Shown piece after piece: positions 349 to 53,542 of a stretch of DNA of 64,000 nucleotides. The DNA comes from Pelagibacteraceae bacterium AG-430-F16. Lineage in GTDB: Bacteria > Pseudomonadota > Alphaproteobacteria > Pelagibacterales > Pelagibacteraceae. How positions within the stretch are numbered: position 1 is the first letter of the stretch; each line of letters begins with the position of its first letter. The notes below the pieces were generated by a model. The model worked only from the letters and a program-made list of their open reading frames with translations, did no database searches and was not told the DNA's origin. Where the stretch lies: NCBI GenBank assembly GCA_003213015.1, contig QCOG01000004.1, forward strand, positions 13,486-77,485, in the 5' to 3' direction. The position numbers and the translations under genes were made by a program.

Positions 349-1464
349 ATGAATAATTACAAAAAATTAGGTGTTTTTAAAAGCAAAGGTAGATTTTTTA
401 AGGACAAAATAAGCAAATACAGAAGCCCATTTCAAAGAGACAGGGACAGAATCATTCATAGTGCTTCATTTAGAAGATTAAAACACAAAACCCAAGTTTT
501 TGTAAATACTGATGGTGATCATTATAGAACAAGAATGACTCATTCCTTAGAAGTAGCACAAATTGCAAGATCAATATCTAAATATTTAAACTTCAATGAT
601 GATTTAGCCGAAACATTAAGTTTAGCACACGATCTTGGCCACACCCCTTTTGGTCATGCAGGTGAGGAAGTTTTAAATGATTGTATGAGTAACCATGGAG
701 GTTTTGATCATAATTTACAAACCTTAAGAATAGTAATGTTTATAGAAAAAAAATATATAGATTTTGATGGTTTAAATTTATCTTTTGAGACTTTAGACGG
801 TCTAATAAAACATAATGGACCAATCAAAGACTTATCTAAATTAGAAAATATTATTGGAATAAAATCGTTTAAAAATAAGTTTAAATTAAATAAATTTTCA
901 TGTTTAGAATCGCAGATTTCAAATATTGCAGATGACATTGCTTACAACAACCATGACATACAAGACGGTCTAAAAGCAGGCTTATTCACATTAGATGAAT
1001 TATTGGAAATCAATTTCTTTAAAGATATATATAAAAAATACAAAAATAAAAAAAAGATAGAATTACAAGTTTTGATACATCAAATAATCAGAGACTCTAT
1101 AGACCTAATGGTAAAAGACATAATAAATAATACAATTCAAAATATAAAAAAAAATAAGATTAAAAAGCTCAATAATGTTTTTGATAATAAGGACAAGACA
1201 GTTGAATTTTCAGATAAACTCAAGGATATTGATAACGATATAAGAAGTTTTTTAAGAAAAAATATGTATGACCACAAAGATGTTCAAAAAAAAAACAATG
1301 AAGGAAAAAAAATTGTGAATTTCTTGTTTAAAAAGCTTTACAGTAATACTGACAATAATTTTTCTATACAAAATTTTGACAAGGATAAAGCTAGATCAGT
1401 TGCGGACTTTATATCCGGAATGACAGATCGTTATGCAATAAATTTATATGAAGAATTAAAATAG
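349..1464 (+). CDS. dgt: Deoxyguanosinetriphosphate triphosphohydrolase (dGTPase)
   Basis: RSPFQRDRDRIIHS..FRRL..KTQV, RTRMTHSLEV and HD motif AHDLGH; usual erpA-dgt-argS synteny. Confidence 0.93.
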   Translation: MNNYKKLGVFKSKGRFFKDKISKYRSPFQRDRDRIIHSASFRRLKHKTQVFVNTDGDHYRTRMTHSLEVAQIARSISKYLNFNDDLAETLSLAHDLGHTPFGHAGEEVLNDCMSNHGGFDHNLQTLRIVMFIEKKYIDFDGLNLSFETLDGLIKHNGPIKDLSKLENIIGIKSFKNKFKLNKFSCLESQISNIADDIAYNNHDIQDGLKAGLFTLDELLEINFFKDIYKKYKNKKKIELQVLIHQIIRDSIDLMVKDIINNTIQNIKKNKIKKLNNVFDNKDKTVEFSDKLKDIDNDIRSFLRKNMYDHKDVQKKNNEGKKIVNFLFKKLYSNTDNNFSIQNFDKDKARSVADFISGMTDRYAINLYEELK

Positions 1465-3192
1465 ATGAACATTTTTGATCATTATCACAACTCTTTATTA
1501 AAAGGTCTTAAAGAATTTGAAAAAAAGGGGGCAATTAAAATCCCAGAAAAAACTAATAGTATTAGTGTAGAGGTTCCACCTGAAAAGTTTGATGCTGATA
1601 TTTCAACAAACGTTTGTATGGTTTTGTCAGGTATTAATAAAAGTAAACCAAAAGATATATATGAAAATTATGTATCAAAACTTTTGAGTAAAGACGATAA
1701 TTTAGAAAACTTTGAAATTGTAAATCCTGGTTTTGTAAATTTAAAATTTAAAAAGAAATTTTGGAACTCTTTTTTAGAAAAAATTGTTCAATTAAAAGAA
1801 TATGGATCAAATAAGAATGAAAAAACTAGAAAATATTTAGTTGAATTCGTATCAGCTAATCCAACCGGACCATTACATGTAGGCCACTGTAGAGGAGCCG
1901 TATTCGGTGATGTCCTTTCAAATCTACTAAAATTTAATAATCATAATGTTACAAAAGAATATTACATAAATGATCACGGTAATCAGATAACAAATTTTAC
2001 TCATTCGGTCTTTTACAGAATTTTAGAATTAAAACACAAAAAAAAATTTCCTGATGATGAAAATCTTTATCCTGGTGAATATATAAAAGAAATTGCACAA
2101 AATATTATATCAAATTCTAAAATTGACAAGTTTGATGAGTTGGAACCAATTTATGATGAATTACAAAAACTTTGTATTGAAAATTCACTTTTAATCATAA
2201 AGTCTAATTTAAAGAAGATAGGTATTGTTCATGATAATTTTGTAAGTGAAAAAAGCATAATCGGAAATAAAGAAGTTGAAAAAGCTTTAAAAAAACTAAA
2301 AGAGCAAGATTTAGTTTTTGAAGGAAAAATTGAGGCGCCTCAAGGAGAGAAGAAAAAAATTTCTGAAACTAGAAATCAATTATTGTTTAGATCAACAGAG
2401 TTTGGTGATGATAAAGATAGGGCTTTAAAAAAAGGTGATGATAGTTGGACATACTTCGCTGGAGATCTTGCATACCATAACAATAAAATCAGTAGAAATT
2501 TTGATATACTCATAAATATTCTTGGAGCCGATCATTCTGGTTATATTAAAAGAATAAGTTCTGTTGTAGATGCCTTATCAAAAAATAAGCAAAAAATGGA
2601 ATGTAAAGTAACTCAATTAGTAAAACTTATAAAAGATAACAAACCATTTAAAATGTCAAAGAGGAAAGGTGATTATATTACTCTTGAAGATTTAATAAAT
2701 GAAGTAGGAAAAGATGCGGCTAGATTTATTATGTTAAGTAGAGTGAGTGATGTCGAATTAGAATTTGACTTTGAAAAGGTAAAACTTAAATCTAAAGACA
2801 ATCCTTTGTATTATGTACAATATTCTTATGCTAGAATTTGTTCAATTTTTTCAAATTCAAAAACACCAATTAATAATGATTATAAAAATTTAGATAAAAA
2901 TTTTGAATTTAACGATGAAGAAATTAAGATTATAAGAAAACTTTCAGAATGGCCAAAATGCATAGAAACTTCTATAAATAAATTAGAACCACACCGACTG
3001 ACAACATATTTATATCAGTTAGCATCTATTTTTCATTCATACTGGAATATGGGAAGAGATAGTGAAGATTTCAGATTTTTAGATCAGGATAAGAAAATTG
3101 AAACGAATAAAGCAGTCTTGTTAAATTGTATTCTATTAGTGATAAAAAATGGTATGGAAATTATCGGAGTTGATACACCGGAAAATATGTAA
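1465..3192 (+). CDS. argS: Arginyl-tRNA synthetase
   Basis: VEFVSANPTGPLHVGH (HIGH), KMSKRKG, YVQYSYARICS. Confidence 0.97.
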   Translation: MNIFDHYHNSLLKGLKEFEKKGAIKIPEKTNSISVEVPPEKFDADISTNVCMVLSGINKSKPKDIYENYVSKLLSKDDNLENFEIVNPGFVNLKFKKKFWNSFLEKIVQLKEYGSNKNEKTRKYLVEFVSANPTGPLHVGHCRGAVFGDVLSNLLKFNNHNVTKEYYINDHGNQITNFTHSVFYRILELKHKKKFPDDENLYPGEYIKEIAQNIISNSKIDKFDELEPIYDELQKLCIENSLLIIKSNLKKIGIVHDNFVSEKSIIGNKEVEKALKKLKEQDLVFEGKIEAPQGEKKKISETRNQLLFRSTEFGDDKDRALKKGDDSWTYFAGDLAYHNNKISRNFDILINILGADHSGYIKRISSVVDALSKNKQKMECKVTQLVKLIKDNKPFKMSKRKGDYITLEDLINEVGKDAARFIMLSRVSDVELEFDFEKVKLKSKDNPLYYVQYSYARICSIFSNSKTPINNDYKNLDKNFEFNDEEIKIIRKLSEWPKCIETSINKLEPHRLTTYLYQLASIFHSYWNMGRDSEDFRFLDQDKKIETNKAVLLNCILLVIKNGMEIIGVDTPENM

Positions 3193-3446
3193 TGATAAAA
3201 GAATTAAGATATTTGCTAATTATATTTTTTATCTTAATATTTTTTTTCCTAACAATTAAATACTATTTATCAGATGAACATAAGAAAAAATATTATAGAA
3301 CTGTCAACGAAATCAACAATAACTTAAGTATAGATGATCAAAATATACCTATACTAAAAAATGACACTCAAGATATAATTACTTACGTTGATGATAAAAA
3401 TGAAAAGACGAAACCTTTTTCATTCTGGAAACTTTTAAATGAATAA
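3192..3446 (+). CDS. Small hypothetical protein with one N-terminal transmembrane helix
   Basis: 84 aa, translationally coupled to argS and nagZ; hydrophobic N-terminus. Confidence 0.7.
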   Translation: MIKELRYLLIIFFILIFFFLTIKYYLSDEHKKKYYRTVNEINNNLSIDDQNIPILKNDTQDIITYVDDKNEKTKPFSFWKLLNE

Positions 3447-42770: not shown

Positions 42771-43898
42771 ATGATTGAATCAGATGTGATTATTGTAGGA
42801 GGTGGGCCAGTTGGGTGCGTTTTGGCTAATAAGCTGTCGAATGAACTTAATTTAAAATGTTTGATCATTGAAAAAAGACACCATATTGCCGGAAATTGTT
42901 ATGATGAATATAACAAAAAAGGATTATTATATCACAAATATGGTCCTCATTATTTAAGATTCAAAAATCGAAAGACTCTAAATTATTTATCCAAATTTAC
43001 AAAATGGATACCTGGAGAGTATATAGTCAAATCGTATGTAAATAAAAAATTATACCCCATACCAATAAACCTAGAAACATTAGAAATGTTTTTTAAAACG
43101 AAATTCAATTCTAAAAAAGACGTTGAAGAATTTTTAGATAAGAAAAGGATAAAACTTAAAAAGATTAGAAATGCAGAAGATTTTATTCTATCAAAGTTAG
43201 GTAAAGAAATTTATGAGAATTTTTATAAAAACTATACGATTAAACAATGGGGCATACATCCTAGAAATCTATCTAAAACAATAACGGGAAGACTTCCTAT
43301 TAGAATAAATCGTAATCCCTACTATGTTAAGGAAAAGTTGAGATTAATGCCCAAAAAAGGTTTTACTGAAATGTTTAAAAAGATGATTAATAACAAAAAT
43401 ATTACAGTTAAATTAAATACCGATTTTAATAAAATAAAAAAAGATTTACGATTTAAACATTTCCTTGTTTATACCGGAGAACCAGATAGGTATTTTAATT
43501 ATAAATATGGAAAGTTAAACTGGAGATCTTTAGTTTTTAAATTTAAGAACCATAATAAGAAATTTTTACAAAAATGTGTTCAGTATAATTATCCCAACGA
43601 TCATAAATACACCAGAACTGTTGAAATAAAACATGTGACCAAGCAAAAAAGCAACTATACTGTGATCTCGAAGGAATACCCAACCAACAAAGGTGATCCT
43701 TATTACCCCATAATAAATGATAAGAACATAAGATTATTCAAAAAATATGAAAATTTGATGAATAAAGAGGCTAAGAATAATATTTTTTTTGAGGGTAGGT
43801 TAGCTAGATACACATATTATAATACTGACGAAGTGATCGAAAGAGCTCTAGATCTATATTTAAATTTAAAAAAAAAATTCAAAAAGAATAAAAATTAA
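42771..43898 (+). CDS. glf: UDP-galactopyranose mutase
   Basis: VGGG..G, HIAGNCYD, HKYGPH, KQWG, YTR.VE.KH, PYYP, GRLA.Y.YY. Confidence 0.93.
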   Translation: MIESDVIIVGGGPVGCVLANKLSNELNLKCLIIEKRHHIAGNCYDEYNKKGLLYHKYGPHYLRFKNRKTLNYLSKFTKWIPGEYIVKSYVNKKLYPIPINLETLEMFFKTKFNSKKDVEEFLDKKRIKLKKIRNAEDFILSKLGKEIYENFYKNYTIKQWGIHPRNLSKTITGRLPIRINRNPYYVKEKLRLMPKKGFTEMFKKMINNKNITVKLNTDFNKIKKDLRFKHFLVYTGEPDRYFNYKYGKLNWRSLVFKFKNHNKKFLQKCVQYNYPNDHKYTRTVEIKHVTKQKSNYTVISKEYPTNKGDPYYPIINDKNIRLFKKYENLMNKEAKNNIFFEGRLARYTYYNTDEVIERALDLYLNLKKKFKKNKN

Positions 43899-44761
43899 AA
43901 ATCTTCAATACGTTTGAAAGATCTGTTATTCTTTATTGAGTTTATTAAACCATTTAATCTAATTTGATATTTTGATTTATTTTTCTTATTACCAGAAATA
44001 GTATTAAGACAAATCCTAAAAATTATTCTTAATAAAGCTGGCAAAAACAGGATTAGAGCAGTTAATTTGCCGTATTTTTTTCTATAATAATAAAACTTCG
44101 ACCAAATAAAATGCCATGTATATAAATTTTTAAGCTTGTTAACATCTTCTTTATTTTTAATTTCAACAGATGTACCGATATCATGATATACTTTTTGTGA
44201 GTTTACTTGGTAAATCTTAAAGTTATTTTTATTTGATCTAAAACAATAATCAGTTTCTTCAAAATAAAGGAAGAAATTTTCATCAAATCCTCTATTTTTA
44301 TCAAATACCTCAGAACAAAAAAACATTGCGGATCCACTTATCGATTCTATTTGACCGTATTTTTCATTAATATTTGATTGTTTATGTGATTTTTCACTTA
44401 CATTTTCAAATCTAGGTCCTAATGCCCCAAAATTATTATTTAATTCTTTGGCTGATTCAAAAAAAACATTTATTAATTTATCGTCAATTTTCTGCATATC
44501 TGGATTCAAAACAAAAAAGTATTTTGTAGTTACATATGTTCTTGCTAAATTTATCGCACTTCCATAACCATTATTTTCGGAAAATATTAGTTCAACGTTT
44601 TTTTTAAAATTTGAAAGTTCTTTTTCAATTGATTTGTCTTTAGAATTTTCAACAATAATTATTTTAAGTTCATTTGATATTTTTTTAATTAATTTTATTA
44701 CTTTTTTTTTACTCTTATGAGATATGATAACAATTGTGACTTCTTTTTTTGAATTAATCAT
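43895..44761 (-). CDS. Glycosyltransferase family 2 (WbbL/GT2-like)
   Basis: NNGYGSAIN, LNPD, GFDENFFLYFEETD.C. Confidence 0.87.
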   Translation of the reverse strand: MINSKKEVTIVIISHKSKKKVIKLIKKISNELKIIIVENSKDKSIEKELSNFKKNVELIFSENNGYGSAINLARTYVTTKYFFVLNPDMQKIDDKLINVFFESAKELNNNFGALGPRFENVSEKSHKQSNINEKYGQIESISGSAMFFCSEVFDKNRGFDENFFLYFEETDYCFRSNKNNFKIYQVNSQKVYHDIGTSVEIKNKEDVNKLKNLYTWHFIWSKFYYYRKKYGKLTALILFLPALLRIIFRICLNTISGNKKNKSKYQIRLNGLINSIKNNRSFKRIEDF

Positions 44762-45711
44762 ATTTTAATCTTATTCAATGCATTATTTTTAAATATATTT
44801 GCTTCTCTTATATATCTTCTAACCATTTGAGTTGTTTTATGACCTGTCATAGCCATAATACTTCTTTCATCTGCACCAGACTCAGCCGCCACTGTTGCAA
44901 ATCCAGCCCTCAAGCTATGACCTGCAAAGTTTTTATTTTCAATACCTGCCAAATTCAAGTATTTCTTCATTAATAAAACGACTGACTGATCTGTTAATCT
45001 TTTATCCGTTAGTATTGAACCCTTGGAAAATCTTCTGAAAATAGGTCCTGATTTGACTTTTGATATTTCTATCCATTTCTTTAAACTAGATACAGGGCAA
45101 TATATTTCGTTAGTGAAGTAGGGCAGGCCTTTAATCATTCCTTCCCCTAATTGATCTGTTTTAGATTTTTTGATATTGATTTTAAGACCTTCAGGTACAA
45201 ATTCTAAATCCTCATGGTCAATTGAAATCAGCTCAGTTCTTCTAAACCCACCTCCAAATCCCACTAATATGATTGATCTATCTCTTAACTTTTTAATTTC
45301 TTCGACTTTTTGTTTATCTATTACATTAACTATAGATTTTAAATGATTGATTAATATAGGTTTTTTTCCTTTCTGAAAACTTCCTTTAACCCTTTTTATA
45401 CCTAACAGATTTTCAGTGATAATTGGATGTTTTGTATCTAAATAATGACCTTTGAGCTTATGAACCATGCTTATTGATACTAATCTTCTTCTAATCGTGC
45501 TTATTTTAAAATTTTTAGATAGATGAGTAAGATATATAGAAACTATTTTAGGTTCAGTTGGTAAAGAATTAAGTCCATGCTTAGTACAAAAAGCTCCAAA
45601 ATCTTTAAAGTCTGATTTATATGCTCTTAAAGTGTTATTTGCTTTTGAACTTTTTAAGTTATTTAAAGTTGCTTCATGAAGCAATTTGAGATCTGTTGTT
45701 AATTTATTCAT
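44758..45711 (-). CDS. Cre-like tyrosine recombinase, 317 aa, catalytic residues intact
   Basis: NTLRAYKSD, STIRRRL..I, RD.SII..GF.GGFRRTEL, SKTDQ.G.G, GHSLRAGFAT, MTGH, MVRRY; ATG at 45711 preferred over the TTG at 45729. Confidence 0.92.
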   Translation of the reverse strand: MNKLTTDLKLLHEATLNNLKSSKANNTLRAYKSDFKDFGAFCTKHGLNSLPTEPKIVSIYLTHLSKNFKISTIRRRLVSISMVHKLKGHYLDTKHPIITENLLGIKRVKGSFQKGKKPILINHLKSIVNVIDKQKVEEIKKLRDRSIILVGFGGGFRRTELISIDHEDLEFVPEGLKINIKKSKTDQLGEGMIKGLPYFTNEIYCPVSSLKKWIEISKVKSGPIFRRFSKGSILTDKRLTDQSVVLLMKKYLNLAGIENKNFAGHSLRAGFATVAAESGADERSIMAMTGHKTTQMVRRYIREANIFKNNALNKIKI

Positions 45712-45712
45712 A

Positions 45713-45747
45713 ATTACTATTGATAACAATTAATTATCATTAGTAAT
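45713..45747. repeat. 14-7-14 bp inverted repeat ATTACTATTGATAA-CAATTAA-TTATCATTAGTAAT; candidate recombinase site (dif/lox-like) or operator
   Basis: 13 of 14 arm positions pair; begins 2 bp upstream of the recombinase ATG. Confidence 0.85.
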
Positions 45748-45771
45748 AATATAAGTCATTTAAGATGTCAA
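45743..45771 (-). promoter_or_regulatory. Putative promoter of the recombinase, overlapping the palindrome
   Basis: TTGACA (45771-45766)-N17-TATTAC. Confidence 0.5.
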
Positions 45772-45793
45772 GTAAATAAGTTAATTTGTTTTT

Positions 45794-45958
45794 ATGATAA
45801 AATATATAATTTTAGCTTTGGCTGTTATCGGAATAATTTTTTTTGTGCTGTTTAAATTTGAAAAATTGAATAAGCCTGAGAAAAAGAAATCTATATACAT
45901 TTTAATAACAGTATTAATTTTAGTCTTAGCTGGAATTGTCTCATTATTGTACTTTTAG
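45794..45958 (+). CDS. 54-aa protein with two TM helices
   Basis: Manual translation MIKYIILALAVIGIIFFVLFKFEKLNKPEKKKSIYILITVLILVLAGIVSLLYF; below the ORF-track cutoff. Confidence 0.72.
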   Translation: MIKYIILALAVIGIIFFVLFKFEKLNKPEKKKSIYILITVLILVLAGIVSLLYF

Positions 45959-46004
45959 AGTTATTAACGTTATTCACACCTTTCCTGTTTAATCGCTTAA
46001 AAAG

Positions 46005-46013
46005 TGATACATT
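46005..46013 (+). promoter_or_regulatory. Extended -10 promoter TG-A-TACATT
   Basis: TGnTAnnnT consensus; predicted start 46020-46021 coincides with the first helix of the RNA. Confidence 0.6.
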
Positions 46014-46020
46014 CAACCTA

Positions 46021-46228
46021 AGTAGTTTGTTATTATCAAATGAATTAAGGGGCAACCCTTAACTGGCCGACTGGGGAAAGGCCGAGAGGACCAAGCCCAG
46101 GGGGCAGAAAGTCTTACGGAGTAGCGCTAAAATCGTAGGGCGGAAGGCATGGCGGTAGCGCATACAACGACGTGCCAAAACTACTGTTCTTTGCACCGTA
46201 AAAAGTGCAAGGAAACAGGGGTTTTTTT
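46021..46228 (+). ncRNA. Structured GC-rich RNA / riboswitch-like leader of the MGMT gene
   Basis: 58% GC over 46061-46180 (70/120, counted); closing helix, four internal helices with GCAA and GAGA tetraloops, loop-loop complementarity and a terminator. Confidence 0.8.
46184..46228 (+). terminator. Intrinsic terminator ending the structured RNA
   Basis: CTGTTCTTTGCAC-CGTAAAAA-GTGCAAGGAAACAG followed by GGG and T7. Confidence 0.65.
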
Positions 46229-46232
46229 CCAT

Positions 46233-46502
46233 ATGAGAGGCACTAAATTTCAATTACAAGTTTGGAATTATCTTAAAAAGATACCTAGGGGATCTGTAAA
46301 AACATATAAACAAGTAGCTATAGCAATAAATAAACCAAAATCAGCTCGTGCGGTTGCTAATGCCTGTGCTAAGAACCCTTATGCTCCAAATATACCATGT
46401 CATAGGGTTATTAGGTCTGATGGAGGCCTTGGAGGTTATTCTGGAAGAGGTGGGGTTGATCAAAAATTGAAATTGCTGAGGTCAGAAAAGGTTGATATTT
46501 AG
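46233..46502 (+). CDS. ogt: Minimal O6-methylguanine-DNA methyltransferase (89 aa)
   Basis: T.FQ..VW..L..IP.G...TY, ARAVANAC.KNP, PCHRV; the ORF-track start at 46149 lies inside the RNA. Confidence 0.9.
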   Translation: MRGTKFQLQVWNYLKKIPRGSVKTYKQVAIAINKPKSARAVANACAKNPYAPNIPCHRVIRSDGGLGGYSGRGGVDQKLKLLRSEKVDI

Positions 46503-46910
46503 AGCTTTTTTGTCACTCAAAAACCTAGTAAAATCAACGTTTTTTATATATTCAGACTTTAAATTGATGTTAATTGCAGATTCAACGATCAGTTGTACCA
46601 TTCCGAGGGTAATTCTTAAAATTGACCCCTCTATGGCTGTTTAAATAGCATATTCATTATCTGCATTGCTCTAGATTTATGGAACAACAATAATTTTATA
46701 CACCCTTTTTTTTAATTGGTCACAGTCTTTGCGTTGCTATTAATGTCCATTTTAGTTGTTTTTTTATTCTTTTCTTCAATTTAACGGTTTTAAGTAGTAT
46801 TTTAAAAAAAATATTTATTTGGTAGATATTTATAATATGTAATAATAACAATGGTTTACATAAATATATTAAAGTATTATATTAATTTTTAGTAAACTTT
46901 TAGTACCTAT

Positions 46911-47762
46911 TTATTTAAGTTTTTTAACGATGTTCTCTCGTCTTGATATATAAATACCACTAAAAACAATAATAAATAAACCAAGAAAAGTCCACTTATC
47001 TGGGAAATCACTAAAGAAGTAATATCCTATTATAATATTTGTAACTATCTCAAAGTAACTAAATGGAGCTAATTTTGAGGCATCTGCGTGCTTAAGAGAC
47101 AATATAATAAATAAATGACCTATGCATGCAAATATTCCAATACCCGCCATCATCGACCATTGATTTAAGGTAGGTTTAATCCATACGAAAGGCATAACAA
47201 ATGAGATTACTATGGTCCCTACTACACCGGTTAATAATAAAGTTAATAAAGGATTATCAGATGAACTTAGTTTTCGTGTAATTATTAAATAAAAACCATA
47301 CATAACTCCAGTTCCTAAAGCTGCTAAACTTGCTAAGTTTATTTCTACAAATCCTGGTCTAATTACTACCATTGATCCAATAAAACCAATTATTACTGCA
47401 GACCATCTTCTAAAACCAACTTTCTCACCTAAAAAAATTGGAGAAAATGCTGTAACAATTAAAGGGGCAATGAAAGCTAATGTAAGAGCCTTTGCCAAAG
47501 AAATTATTGAAATTGAATAAAAGAAACAAACATTTGCAGTTAATAAAATTAAACCTCTAATAAGTTGTAGTTTAGGTTTATCAGTCCAAACAAGGTTTTT
47601 TCTAAAAAAGAAAAACATTATAGGCAATGTAAATGCTACTGTGAAGAAGTATCGTGCCCACGTAATTTGTAAAACTGGAAGATCAGAACTGAGATATTTA
47701 GCAAAACCATCCATTATGGGGAGCATTACCCACGCTAATAGATTAAAAGTAATAGCTTTCAT
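46911..47762 (-). CDS. DMT/EamA family transporter
   Basis: About 10 TM helices; F.APLIVT, GEKVG.RRW, ASKLAPFSY. Confidence 0.88.
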   Translation of the reverse strand: MKAITFNLLAWVMLPIMDGFAKYLSSDLPVLQITWARYFFTVAFTLPIMFFFFRKNLVWTDKPKLQLIRGLILLTANVCFFYSISIISLAKALTLAFIAPLIVTAFSPIFLGEKVGFRRWSAVIIGFIGSMVVIRPGFVEINLASLAALGTGVMYGFYLIITRKLSSSDNPLLTLLLTGVVGTIVISFVMPFVWIKPTLNQWSMMAGIGIFACIGHLFIILSLKHADASKLAPFSYFEIVTNIIIGYYFFSDFPDKWTFLGLFIIVFSGIYISRRENIVKKLK

Positions 47763-51593: not shown

Positions 51594-52052
51594 TTAATTT
51601 CTGACAATATTTTTGTTGTTTAATTTTGAAACATCAATTAATACCGGGTTTTGTGACACATGCGGGTGCTTTTCACCAACATAAACTTTAAGTTTTGATA
51701 ATTGTTTTTTTCCTAAAGGTCCACCAGGTAACATTCTTTTAACAGCCAACTTTAAAACTTCCTCTGGCTTTTTTTGATGCAATTTCTCAGGTGTTGTTAC
51801 TTTAATACCGCCTGGGTAACCAGTATGTCGATAATACTTTTTATTTTCAAATTTATTTCCAGTAAATTTTATGTGTTCAATATTTTTTACCACCACAAAG
51901 TCACCGTGATCCATATGTGGTGAAAATTTAGGGCTATTCTTACCTCTTATTATTTTTGTTATAATAGTCGCTAATCTACCTACTACAGCATTTTTTGCAT
52001 CAATTTCGTACCACTTACAGTTTATTTCACTTTTTTTAACGAATTTAGTCAT
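51594..52052 (-). CDS. rplM: 50S ribosomal protein L13
   Basis: WYEIDA, GRLA, Y.RHTGYPGG, GMLP-like RMLP, HPH. Confidence 0.97.
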   Translation of the reverse strand: MTKFVKKSEINCKWYEIDAKNAVVGRLATIITKIIRGKNSPKFSPHMDHGDFVVVKNIEHIKFTGNKFENKKYYRHTGYPGGIKVTTPEKLHQKKPEEVLKLAVKRMLPGGPLGKKQLSKLKVYVGEKHPHVSQNPVLIDVSKLNNKNIVRN

Positions 52053-52062
52053 GTTTGCGGGG

Positions 52063-52091
52063 ATTAATACTTAGAAATAGCCTATTGTCAA
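52063..52091 (-). promoter_or_regulatory. Putative promoter of rplM-rpsI-argC, giving a very short leader
   Basis: TTGACA (52091-52086)-N16-TATTAAT, 10 bp before the ATG. Confidence 0.5.
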
Positions 52092-52216
52092 ATTATTATA
52101 TTTATCTTGTTTTTTCTAATTATCTTATGATAGCCTTAAAAAATATATGAAAGTAGTACATAATTCACAATTTCTACTAATCAAAAAACATAAATCATCA
52201 ACGAAGGGAGAAAAAA

Positions 52217-53542
52217 ATGAGTAAATCTAAGAATCCAGAGACTATTGCTCTACATGGTGGTGAATATAGAAGTGATCCAGCAACTACTGCTGTTGCTGTG
52301 CCGATTTATAGAACAACATCATATCAGTTTAATAATACTGGACATGCAGCAAACTTATTTGCACTTAAGGAGTTTGGAAATATCTATACAAGGATTATGA
52401 ACCCAACAAATGATGTCTTGGAAAAAAGAGTTGCAGCAATTGAAAACGGGCTAGCCTGTGTGACTGTTGGTTCGGGACAAGCAGCATCTACATTTGCAAT
52501 TCTAAATGTATGTCAGTCTGGAGATAACTTTGTTAGTTCAACAGATCTATATGGTGGAACAGTAAACTTATTTACACATACTTTAAAAAAACTTGGTATA
52601 GAAGTAAGGTATGCTGATCCCTCTGATCCAAAAAATTTTGAAAAAGCAATAGATGATAAAACAAGATGTTTCTATGCAGAAACATTGCCTAATCCTGCTT
52701 TAAGAGTTTTTCCAATAAAAGAAGTTTCAGATATTGGAAGAAAGCACAATATACCTCTAATAATGGATAATACTGCAGCACCAGTTATATGTAAGCCTTT
52801 AGACCATGGTGCGGCTGTTGTTGTTCATTCTTTAACTAAATTCATTGGAGGTCATGGCACAGTAATTGGTGGATGTTTAGTTGATGGAGGAAATTTTGAC
52901 TGGACAGCTGATCCAAAAAGACAACCATTGTTTAATGAGCCAGATATGAGTTATGGTGGAGCAAAATGGGGTGAAGTTGTACCTCAATTGACTGGAGCCA
53001 ATGTATCTTTTGCCGTAAGAGCAAGAGTATGTTTATTAAGGGACTTAGGAGCACCTTTAGCACCTGATAATGCATGGGGTATTATACAAGGGTTAGAGAC
53101 AGCACCTTTAAGAATGAAACAACACTGTTCAAATGCAGAAAAGGCTGTTGATTTTTTAACTAAGCACAAAAATGTTGAAAGAGTTATATATCCAACACTT
53201 CACAAAGGAGCAGTTGGCGATAGAACTAAGAAATATTTTTCTGGAGGTAATGGTGCTCTAGTTGGTATTGAAGTTAAAGGCGGTGTAGAAGCTGGTAAAA
53301 AGTTTATTGAGGCTTTAAAAATGTTTTATCATGTAGCAAATATTGGAGATGCAAGAAGTTTAGCTATCCACCCTGCTACAACTACGCATAGTCAGCTTAC
53401 TGAAGAAGAATTATTAGCAGCTGGTGTTACACCTGGATACATAAGACTATCAATAGGTATTGAGCATCCAGATGATATTATTGCTGACTTAAAACAAGCA
53501 CTTGATGCTTCAGGTAAGCCAAGTCTGAAGGCTGTAAGTTAA
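52217..53542 (+). CDS. metY: O-acetylhomoserine sulfhydrylase (PLP enzyme)
   Basis: PIYRTTSY.F, YTRIMNPT, HSLTKFIGGHG, ANIGDARSL.IHPA.TTH. Confidence 0.92.
   Translation: MSKSKNPETIALHGGEYRSDPATTAVAVPIYRTTSYQFNNTGHAANLFALKEFGNIYTRIMNPTNDVLEKRVAAIENGLACVTVGSGQAASTFAILNVCQSGDNFVSSTDLYGGTVNLFTHTLKKLGIEVRYADPSDPKNFEKAIDDKTRCFYAETLPNPALRVFPIKEVSDIGRKHNIPLIMDNTAAPVICKPLDHGAAVVVHSLTKFIGGHGTVIGGCLVDGGNFDWTADPKRQPLFNEPDMSYGGAKWGEVVPQLTGANVSFAVRARVCLLRDLGAPLAPDNAWGIIQGLETAPLRMKQHCSNAEKAVDFLTKHKNVERVIYPTLHKGAVGDRTKKYFSGGNGALVGIEVKGGVEAGKKFIEALKMFYHVANIGDARSLAIHPATTTHSQLTEEELLAAGVTPGYIRLSIGIEHPDDIIADLKQALDASGKPSLKAVS

What the first reader, a model, noticed from the sequence alone, without database searches (positions are those of the whole stretch)
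46005..46502. Kissing-loop structured RNA with a competing terminator upstream of a minimal DNA alkyltransferase
Seen, folded by hand: promoter TGnTACATT, then P1 46021-28/46178-85; P2 TTAAGGG-GCAA-CCCTTAA (46045-62); P3 CTGGG..CC-GAGA-GG..CCCAG (46071-100, extendable to 46063-107); P4 46111-19/46133-41; P5 GGCATG/CGTGCC (46146-51/46171-76). The P4 loop (GCGCTA, 46124-29) is complementary to the P5 loop (TAGCGC, 46156-61). The base of the terminator stem (46184 onward, T7 at 46222-28) overlaps the 3' strand of P1 and holds the GGGG Shine-Dalgarno-like tract of ogt, whose ATG follows 4 nt after the T run. GC is 58% against a very AT-rich background. Inference: an orphan riboswitch/attenuator or an abundant independent ncRNA. 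From memory and unverified, a highly expressed putative sRNA upstream of 6-O-MGMT was reported in Pelagibacter from ocean metatranscriptomes, and the marine IMES motifs are another possible match. I know of no assigned function or ligand.
Basis: partly seen in the sequence, partly recalled or inferred. Interest (0 to 1): 0.8.

Follow-up and report, generated by a model that had tools for sequence, protein, structure and literature searches.

The report
IMES-2 small RNA of SAR11
The structured element is a textbook copy of IMES-2, a marine RNA family described in 2009 whose function is still unknown; it is an abundant stand-alone small RNA of SAR11 bacteria with its own promoter and terminator, not a switch that controls the DNA-repair gene behind it.

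Summary
Window 46038-46178 (+) matches Rfam RF02035 (IMES-2) over the full model at 158.8 bits, against a cut-off of 54.7. The hand-folded hairpins P2-P5, the loop-loop pairing, the terminator and the 89-aa ogt are all real. An alignment of 119 Pelagibacteraceae loci shows strong covariation for them. The loop-loop pairing has three compensatory events.

The proposed P1 helix is not conserved: 45% of cells pair, the same as shifted controls. No conserved antiterminator exists, so the "competing terminator/riboswitch" reading fails.

IMES-2 occupies two mutually exclusive conserved positions:
- recombinase / IMES-2 / ogt (72 of 121 loci);
- mnmA / IMES-2 / convergent gene, with nothing downstream to regulate (49 of 121).

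In addition, 28 of 80 SAR11 ogt loci lack IMES-2.

In marine metatranscriptome assemblies the depth over about 46042-46230 is 10 to more than 1,000 times that over ogt, and it equals or exceeds the depth over metY.

Best reading: a self-contained unit of about 270 bp (upstream boxes, extended -10, RNA of about 187 nt, intrinsic terminator) that makes a trans-acting structured RNA. ogt is transcribed only by leaky read-through.

Function remains unknown. Novelty: already known.

The parts
45961..45978 (+). Two adjacent 9-mers, TTATTAACG and TTATTCACA, that resemble the DnaA-box consensus TTATNCACA. They mark the left edge of the homology block shared by both locus types.
   Evidence: 113 of 120 loci have a match with at most 1 mismatch at an equivalent position. 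The alignment of class A and class B upstream regions shows homology starting here. A single occurrence is not above chance in the window: 3 found, 4.4 expected. Binding by DnaA is an inference.
46002..46010 (+). Conserved block AAGTGATAC, about -40 to -32 from the inferred start. Its role is unknown: a -35-like element or a regulator site.
   Evidence: GTGAT is present at a fixed offset in all 120 loci of both classes.
46028..46036 (+). Extended -10 promoter element TGTTATTAT (TG-n-TATTAT).
   Evidence: TGnTAnnnT in most class A loci and TGATTTAAT in most class B loci sit at the same alignment columns. T8, T10 and T13 of alignment A1 are nearly invariant, and both flanks are variable. The element lies 6-7 nt before the contig starts at 46042/46043.
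46042..46228 (+). Inferred IMES-2 transcript, about 187 nt, running from the start at G46042/A46043 to the end of the U tract.
   Evidence: Depth in metatranscriptome assemblies is 5,500-60,000 (X3), 930-3,250 (X6) and 1,650-2,100 (X13) inside this range. In X3 it is 0 upstream and 6-38 downstream. Contigs begin at 46042 or 46043 in three runs. The ends are inferred from contigs, not from read ends.
46038..46178 (+). Match to Rfam RF02035 (IMES-2), model positions 1-141 of 141.
   Evidence: 158.8 bits, gathering score 54.7, E 9.7e-42. It is the only Rfam hit with E <= 1 in 45600-47000.
46045..46062 (+). P2 hairpin, 7 bp, with an invariant GCAA (GNRA) tetraloop.
   Evidence: 100% of cells pair, and 2 pairs carry compensatory changes.
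46063..46107 (+). P3, a three-part helix with a conserved GAAA/CAAG internal loop and an invariant GAGA (GNRA) tetraloop.
   Evidence: 95% of cells pair, and 8 pairs carry compensatory changes. This window has two non-canonical pairs, marked 'v'.
46111..46141 (+). P4 hairpin, 8 bp, with a 15-nt loop GAGUAGCGCUAAAAU.
   Evidence: All 8 pairs covary, and 95% of cells pair.
46146..46176 (+). P5 hairpin, 9 positions including a conserved G.A mismatch, with a 13-nt loop GUAGCGCAUACAA.
   Evidence: 4 pairs carry compensatory changes, and 88% of cells pair. The shortfall comes from the conserved G.A.
46124..46161 (+). Loop-loop (kissing) pairing: GCGCUA 46124-29 with UAGCGC 46156-61.
   Evidence: L217 and L268 have GUACUA/UAGUAC, and L286 has GUGCUA/UAGCAA. 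99.4% of cells pair, and no shuffle of 500 reaches the observed double changes.
46184..46228 (+). Intrinsic terminator: a 13-bp stem with one bulged A, an 8-nt loop, GGG, then U7.
   Evidence: All 13 pairs covary across very different stem sequences in class A and class B. The mean hairpin energy is -18.5 kcal/mol. Depth drops here in four runs.
46233..46502 (+). ogt: an 89-aa O6-alkylguanine-DNA alkyltransferase made of the C-terminal domain only, with active-site motif PCHRV.
   Evidence: PF01035, E 5.5e-33. TIGR00589, E 1.5e-29. No promoter-like site lies between the IMES-2 start and the ATG.
45794..45958 (+). 54-aa hydrophobic small ORF between the recombinase gene and the IMES-2 unit.
   Evidence: Conserved at 83-89% identity in seven related loci. 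Only a sub-threshold DUF6524 hit.
44758..45729 (-). Divergently oriented tyrosine recombinase (phage-integrase family). It is a neighbour in class A loci and not part of the RNA unit.
   Evidence: PF00589 plus PF02899. Below the cut-offs for XerC and XerD. Present at ogt loci both with and without IMES-2.

Best explanation
The element is the gene for IMES-2 RNA, a stand-alone, very abundant structured small RNA of Pelagibacteraceae (SAR11). It is carried on a self-contained unit of about 270 bp.

The unit consists of:
- two adjacent DnaA-box-like 9-mers;
- a conserved AAGTGATAC block;
- an extended -10 (TGTTATTAT);
- a transcription start near 46042;
- four hairpins in series (P2-P5), closed into a compact fold by two GNRA tetraloops and a 6-bp P4-P5 loop-loop pairing;
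- a short A-rich linker;
- a strong intrinsic terminator.

Most transcripts stop at the terminator and accumulate as an RNA of about 187 nt that acts in trans. Its heavily conserved loops and junctions point to recognition of a protein or small ligand through its three-dimensional shape. Simple antisense pairing is less likely.

In this locus type ogt has no promoter of its own between the terminator and its ATG. It is transcribed by the small fraction of polymerases that read through. That arrangement suits a suicide repair protein that is needed in low copy number.

What is shown: family membership, structure, the terminator, the two genomic contexts, and relative depth in assemblies.

What is inferred: the exact 5' and 3' ends, the read-through origin of ogt mRNA, trans action, and the type of partner.
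For: Family: RF02035, full length, 158.8 bits.

Structure: 92.5% of cells pair against 35-43% for slid controls, and 38 of 58 pairs show double changes. RNAalifold gives the same structure independently. The kissing loop covaries.

Independence from ogt:
- In 49 of 121 loci IMES-2 lies between mnmA (confirmed by Pfam) and a convergent membrane-protein gene whose stop is about 30 nt past the terminator.
- 28 of 80 ogt loci with the same recombinase/ogt/eamA/AEC synteny have no IMES-2. One of these is the 1.33-Mb HIMB2250 contig.

A single unit: the promoter blocks and the terminator are conserved in both contexts.

One copy per genome: 120 loci come from 120 different assemblies, and a 1.1-Mb contig has a single hit.

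Abundance and boundaries:
- 14 labelled RNA runs from 8 studies hold about one third of the sampled words of the 561-nt query, roughly the length of the RNA.
- X3 depth is 0 upstream, 5,500-60,000 inside and 6-38 over ogt. X6, X13 and X2 behave similarly. IMES-2 equals or exceeds metY, the strongest mRNA nearby.
- Contigs bridging 46167-46445 and 46197-46511 show that read-through molecules exist.

No switch.
Against: - Function was not tested. No partner protein gene is linked in either context, so the choice of protein or ligand binding over antisense action rests only on the conservation pattern.
- Depths are assembler k-mer depths of contigs, not read counts. Contigs break where strains differ, so the 5' end at 46042 could partly reflect the boundary between conserved and variable sequence.
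- Some runs (X1, X2) show flat low coverage on both sides that could be DNA.
- Regulated read-through by a factor that does not need an antiterminator helix cannot be excluded.
- The conserved AAAACUAC linker ahead of the terminator would also suit a seed or chaperone-binding site of a base-pairing sRNA.
Confidence: 0.7

Rival explanations
1. Cis-acting riboswitch or attenuator: ligand binding to the IMES-2 fold decides between the terminator and an alternative helix (P1), and so sets ogt expression.
For: - In 72 of 121 loci ogt follows IMES-2. In the 52 IMES-2-bearing loci of the ogt scan its ATG lies 55-73 nt past the conserved core, with a terminator in between.
- In this window P1 is a perfect 8 bp that overlaps the base of the terminator.
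- The pattern of conserved junctions and loops resembles that of aptamers.
Against: - P1 pairs in 45% of cells, the same as slid controls. Only 11 of 119 loci have a complement of 6 nt or more, and 7 of those (the window plus six near relatives) share the same 5' strand.
- RNAalifold predicts no enclosing helix.
- The candidate antiterminator segment has a mean energy of -2.1 kcal/mol, against -2.2 for shuffles and -18.5 for the terminator.
- 49 of 121 loci have only a convergent gene downstream.
- 28 of 80 ogt loci lack the RNA.
- Rfam classes the family as 'Gene', not as cis-regulatory.
Confidence: 0.05
2. Base-pairing trans-acting sRNA: the structured body only stabilises the molecule. A conserved single-stranded stretch, such as the AAAACUACU linker or the 3' halves of the loops, pairs with target mRNAs, possibly with a chaperone bound at the terminator U tail.
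For: - It has its own promoter and intrinsic terminator, and it is highly abundant.
- A159-C163 and T164 of the linker are nearly invariant.
Against: - About 135 nt of intricate, covarying structure with invariant GNRA loops and a kissing loop is far more than typical seed-type sRNAs carry.
- No target search could be done with one 64-kb window.
Confidence: 0.15
3. The palindromic loops mediate pairing between molecules (dimers or multimers, as at the HIV-1 DIS) instead of, or in addition to, the intramolecular P4-P5 contact.
For: - The P4 loop UAGCGCUA is an 8-nt palindrome.
- The variant AGUACU keeps the palindrome.
- Very high cellular concentration would favour dimers.
Against: - The P5 loop changes together with P4 in L217 and L268. 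That change is not needed for P4-P4' pairing.
- L286 breaks the P4 palindrome (AGUGCU) but keeps 5 of 6 P4-P5 pairs through a compensatory change.
- The common variant CAGCGCUA shortens the palindrome without touching the 6 kissing pairs.
Confidence: 0.08
4. The RNA gene is chiefly a landmark for site-specific recombination, either as an attachment site for the neighbouring tyrosine recombinase or as part of a mobile cassette.
For: - A divergent recombinase gene sits 160-850 bp upstream in class A loci, next to a variable glycosyltransferase region.
- The unit of about 270 bp occurs at two unrelated sites with sharp homology edges.
- Presence at ogt loci is patchy relative to Ogt and EamA similarity.
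- One SAG shows IMES-2 broken at the P4 loop and joined to the recombinase gene.
Against: - The recombinase is equally present at ogt loci without IMES-2 and absent from all 49 mnmA loci.
- No copy was found in 2.9 million viral contigs or 50,697 phage records.
- No flanking direct repeats were looked for or seen.
- The L206 junction may be an amplification chimera.
Confidence: 0.07

Closest known systems
IMES-2 RNA motif (Rfam RF02035). From memory: Weinberg et al. 2009 Nature 462:656, and a putative sRNA group of Shi, Tyson & DeLong 2009 Nature 459:266. Neither paper is held in the library.
   Same: Full-length match to all 141 model positions at three times the gathering score, with the same four hairpins and the same conserved loop sequences. 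It is marine and very abundant in metatranscriptomes.
   Different: Nothing structural differs.

Added here, with publication status not checkable using these tools:
- assignment to at least 120 Pelagibacteraceae genomes;
- two exclusive synteny types;
- conserved promoter blocks and terminator;
- covariation of the loop-loop pairing;
- lack of a switch.
Transcription-terminating riboswitches, for example the SAM-V and SAM-II leaders of 'Ca. Pelagibacter ubique'
   Same: A GC-rich structured leader in an AT-rich genome, followed by an intrinsic terminator and, in 60% of loci, by a gene.
   Different: It has no enclosing P1, no antiterminator and no constant downstream gene class. It accumulates to mRNA-exceeding levels as a discrete RNA.
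Abundant housekeeping or regulatory structured RNAs that act through shape, such as 6S RNA, and other marine 'most abundant transcript' ncRNAs such as cyanobacterial Yfr103 (PMC5069720)
   Same: A stand-alone gene with its own promoter and terminator, at the top of the transcriptome, with conserved secondary structure.
   Different: There is no sequence or structural similarity. 6S is a long interrupted duplex that mimics open promoter DNA, whereas IMES-2 is four short hairpins with tertiary contacts. IMES-2 is missing from some SAR11 genomes at the ogt site, so it may be dispensable.
Loop-loop kissing complexes, such as the HIV-1 DIS and the ColE1 RNA I/RNA II pair
   Same: Six Watson-Crick pairs between two hairpin loops with a GC-rich palindromic core.
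   Different: Here the covariation favours an intramolecular contact between neighbouring hairpins.

Membership tests
IMES-2 RNA motif (RF02035) | Covariance-model score above the curated gathering threshold over the whole model. | tested here: met
   158.8 bits against 54.7, model positions 1-141 of 141, E 9.7e-42.
IMES-2 RNA motif (RF02035) | Four consecutive hairpins supported by covariation, with conserved GCAA and GAGA tetraloops and AGUAGCGCU / GGUAGCGC loops. | tested here: met
   29 of 44 RNAalifold pairs and 38 of 58 named pairs carry compensatory changes.
IMES-2 RNA motif (RF02035) | Marine origin and exceptional abundance in metatranscriptomes. This property of the family is recalled from the original descriptions, from memory. 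| tested here: met
   14 labelled RNA runs of seawater or marine metatranscriptomes hold it. Its depth equals or exceeds that of the strongest neighbouring mRNA.
IMES-2 RNA motif (RF02035) | Pseudoknot between the P4 and P5 loops. I could not check whether the published consensus annotates it. | tested here: met
   The pairing itself is supported. Its status in the published model cannot be tested here, because cmscan output carries no pseudoknot line and the paper is not held.
Transcriptional riboswitch / attenuator | Constant position in the 5' leader of genes of one functional class. | tested here: not met
   49 of 121 loci have no co-oriented downstream gene. 28 of 80 ogt loci lack the RNA.
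Transcriptional riboswitch / attenuator | Mutually exclusive terminator and antiterminator (or P1) pairings that are conserved. | tested here: not met
   For P1, 45% of cells pair, the same as slid controls. The antiterminator segment is no more stable than shuffles, with mean z of 0.08.
Transcriptional riboswitch / attenuator | Specific ligand binding that changes the fold. | not testable with these tools
   Needs in-line probing, ITC or similar.
Stand-alone bacterial sRNA gene | Own promoter, own Rho-independent terminator, and a discrete transcript. | tested here: met
   Promoter blocks and a covarying terminator are conserved in both contexts. The depth profile has sharp edges. Read-level ends are not available.
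O6-alkylguanine-DNA alkyltransferase (Ogt/MGMT), the downstream gene | PF01035 / TIGR00589 domain with the acceptor cysteine in PCHRV. | tested here: met
   The N-terminal domain of full-length Ogt is absent (89 aa).

The most novel reading that the evidence does not exclude
IMES-2 is a relocatable RNA-gene cassette of about 270 bp whose transcription is set by DnaA bound to the two adjacent DnaA-box-like 9-mers. On this reading the most abundant small RNA of IMES-2-positive SAR11 cells reports replication or growth state. It acts in trans through a compact kissing-loop fold on a protein or metabolite, and the cassette has moved between the mnmA and ogt sites, carrying the last codons of mnmA with it.
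Probability: 0.12. Interest if true: 0.6.

Novelty: already known. Interest (0 to 1): 0.33.

Why it matters
SAR11 is the most abundant bacterial lineage in the ocean and has very few protein regulators. An RNA that matches or outnumbers its strongest mRNAs is therefore likely to matter for its physiology.

IMES-2 has had no assigned function since it was described in 2009, as far as I recall. None of the ten literature calls found any text on it (six full-text searches; four look-ups by identifier).

This work adds no new class. It narrows the hypotheses:
- IMES-2 is not an ogt riboswitch.
- It is single-copy.
- It sits in two defined loci.
- It has a definable promoter and terminator.
- It has a testable tertiary contact.

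These points make experiments on cultured IMES-2-positive isolates straightforward to design. They also warn annotators about the spurious 117-aa ORF that fuses the RNA to ogt.

Tried and rejected
- Literature: six full-text searches and four look-ups of the two founding papers gave nothing on IMES-2. Four other papers were checked for mentions, also with nothing.
- The first pattern, AGTAGCGCTN{12,40}GGTAGCGC, was too loose. Most of its 120 genome hits and all 74 viral hits were chance matches. It was replaced by a P2-P3 pattern that leaves the P4 and P5 loops free.
- That specific pattern found no viral contig. blastn of the whole unit found no phage record.
- The simple promoter/terminator scan found neither the IMES-2 promoter nor its terminator, because there is no -35, the stem is bulged and GGG precedes the T run. 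Both rest instead on conservation and covariation.
- P1 was rejected and an antiterminator was rejected.
- The in-frame ATG at 46149 gives a 117-aa ORF. This was rejected as coding because the distance from the core to the ATG varies from 55 to 73 nt across loci, not in multiples of three, and the region evolves by compensatory stem changes.
- The exact Ogt protein is not on record, so the source genome was not identified.
- One read-laying run failed on a filtered stretch.
- I could not determine whether ogt loci without IMES-2 carry the mnmA-linked copy.

Full report
**Identity.** A gathering-threshold Rfam scan of the whole window gives one non-tRNA hit. It is RF02035, the IMES-2 RNA motif, at 46038-46178 on the + strand. 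The score is 158.8 bits against a cut-off of 54.7, E is 9.7e-42, and all 141 model positions are matched. A permissive scan of 45600-47000 finds nothing else.

**The observation.**
- The sequence is as described. Rfam extends P5 to nine positions with a conserved G.A.
- The region folds better than shuffles, with z = -3.8.
- GC is 57% in a 20-33% GC background.
- The ORF behind it runs 46233-46502. It encodes 89 aa, consists of the Ogt C-terminal domain only, and has the PCHRV acceptor motif.

**Relatives.**
- A first, loose pattern returned mostly chance hits.
- A pattern confined to the P2 loop through the P3 loop leaves P4 and P5 unconstrained. All are Pelagibacteraceae and all are different isolates.
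- The same pattern hit no viral contig.
- A 1.1-Mb contig carries a single hit, which suggests one copy per genome.

**Structure.**
- Alignment A1 holds 119 loci. On it, the Rfam helices plus the loop-loop pairing plus the terminator pair in 92.5% of cells. Slid partners give 35-43%. 38 of 58 pairs show changes on both sides.
- RNAalifold finds the same helices and the terminator independently, and finds no enclosing helix.
- The loop-loop pairing GCGCUA/UAGCGC is invariant in most sequences. It changes to GUACUA/UAGUAC in L217 and L268, and to GUGCUA/UAGCAA in L286. Tested alone, it pairs in 99.4% of cells, with 7 double-changed cells against 0.2 expected.
- The loops are partly palindromic, so pairing between molecules is conceivable. 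The coordinated change of P5 and the broken P4 palindrome in L286 favour the intramolecular contact.
It pairs in 45% of cells, no better than slid controls. Only 11 of 119 loci have a complement of 6 nt or more, and 7 of those (the window plus six near relatives) share the same 5' strand.
- The segment that would have to form an antiterminator is no more stable than shuffles: -2.1 against -2.2 kcal/mol. The terminator averages -18.5 kcal/mol.

**Genomic context.** tblastn with the window's proteins and clustering of neighbouring ORFs give two exclusive arrangements.
- Class A (72 of 121 loci): tyrosine recombinase (-), IMES-2 (+), ogt (+), eamA (-), AEC transporter (-).
- Class B (49 of 121 loci): mnmA (+), IMES-2 (+), then a convergent membrane-protein gene that ends about 30 nt past the terminator. 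Nothing downstream could be regulated in cis.
- Conversely, 28 of the 80 best SAR11 ogt loci have class A synteny but no IMES-2. One is the 1.33-Mb HIMB2250 contig. In these loci a small membrane ORF precedes ogt.
- Presence is patchy with respect to Ogt and EamA similarity.

**The unit.** Homology between the two classes starts at two adjacent DnaA-box-like 9-mers. In the window these are 45961-78. In class B the first 9-mer is the final Leu-Ser-Thr codons of mnmA. Homology then runs through a conserved AAGTGATAC block (46002-10) and an extended -10 (46028-36) into the RNA and its terminator. The spacers between these blocks vary, as expected of promoter elements.

**Expression.**
- 14 labelled RNA runs from 8 studies hold about one third of the sampled words of a 561-nt query. 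That fraction corresponds to the length of the RNA.
- In Logan assemblies of five runs the depth rises near 46042 and falls after about 46230.
- In X3 the depth is 0 upstream, 5,500-60,000 inside and 6-38 over ogt.
- In X6 it is 930-3,250 inside against 25-50 over ogt.
- In X13 it is about 1,650-2,100 inside against 11.
- In X2 it is 55-155 inside against 10-20.
- The IMES-2 bin equals or exceeds metY, the strongest mRNA in the 12-kb neighbourhood.
- Contigs start at 46042 or 46043 in three runs. One is chimeric exactly at 46042.
- Contigs that bridge the terminator into ogt exist.
- These are assembler depths of contigs, not read counts, so the boundaries and ratios are approximate.

**Mechanism.**
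- Shown: a stand-alone, single-copy, highly expressed structured RNA gene with its own promoter blocks and a covarying intrinsic terminator.
- Inferred: transcription starts at G46042/A46043. About 90-99.9% of transcripts end at the U tract. ogt has no promoter-like site between 46042 and its ATG, so it is transcribed by read-through.
- Inferred with low confidence: the RNA acts in trans through its compact fold (two GNRA tetraloops, a kissing loop, invariant junctions) on a protein or small molecule. A seed-type antisense mechanism is the main rival.

**Comparison and novelty.** The element is a member of IMES-2 on every testable criterion, and it fails two of the three criteria I listed for a transcriptional riboswitch (the third, ligand binding, cannot be tested here). 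Neither founding paper is held in the library. What I state about them (discovery in marine metagenomes, exceptional abundance, no cultivated host in 2009) is therefore from memory. I cannot tell whether the clade assignment, the two contexts or the pseudoknot are already published. The finding is an already known RNA family of unknown function. The interest is moderate to low for novelty. It is somewhat higher as an open question that is now easier to attack.

Noticed in passing
window 45961-45978; equivalent positions in 113 of 120 loci: Two directly adjacent 9-mers resemble the DnaA box TTATNCACA and are conserved upstream of IMES-2 in both locus types. In the mnmA-linked type the first 9-mer is the last three codons (L-S-T) of mnmA and the second begins at its stop codon. 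This could be a regulator site, or a relic showing that the unit came from the mnmA site.
   Followed up: partly
L206:276-1181 (SAG AG-365-E11): The 5' half of IMES-2 ends in the P4 loop and is joined on the same strand to the recombinase gene from about codon 57 onward. No 3' half is present within 8 kb. This is either a real inversion between the RNA gene and the recombinase gene or a chimera from single-cell genome amplification.
   Followed up: partly
window 43895-45729 and class A loci: The tyrosine recombinase is conserved at 60-94% identity. It sits between a region of glycosyltransferase genes that differs from genome to genome and the conserved ogt-eamA-AEC flank. It therefore appears to mark the edge of a hypervariable (surface polysaccharide?) island.
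   Followed up: partly
L312-L385 subset, e.g. L372:2695-3000 (HIMB2250), L324:2736-3000: 28 of 80 SAR11 ogt loci have no IMES-2. There a small hydrophobic ORF abuts ogt. The window has both a small ORF (45794-45958) and IMES-2. Presence does not follow Ogt or EamA similarity.
   Followed up: partly
window 46149-46502: An ATG inside P5 is in frame with ogt and gives a 117-aa ORF, so gene callers could annotate a falsely extended Ogt that swallows the 3' part of the RNA and its terminator. A 64-aa ORF on the minus strand (46059-46253) also overlaps the RNA.
   Followed up: yes
window 52053-52216 (leader of metY, 52217-53539): metY (O-acetylhomoserine sulfhydrylase) is the most highly expressed mRNA in the 12-kb neighbourhood. 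No Rfam family, including the SAM riboswitches known from Pelagibacter metY leaders (from memory), matches 51900-52400 even at E <= 1.
   Followed up: no
window 46503-46910: A 408-nt very AT-rich spacer (16-33% GC) lies between the convergent ogt and eamA genes. Its length varies between about 415 and 560 nt among loci. It is transcribed at ogt-like low depth. No Rfam hit.
   Followed up: no
runs X4, X5: Two oligo-dT-selected marine libraries also hold the IMES-2 words. This could come from sheer abundance, from internal priming on A-rich stretches, or from polyadenylation.
   Followed up: no
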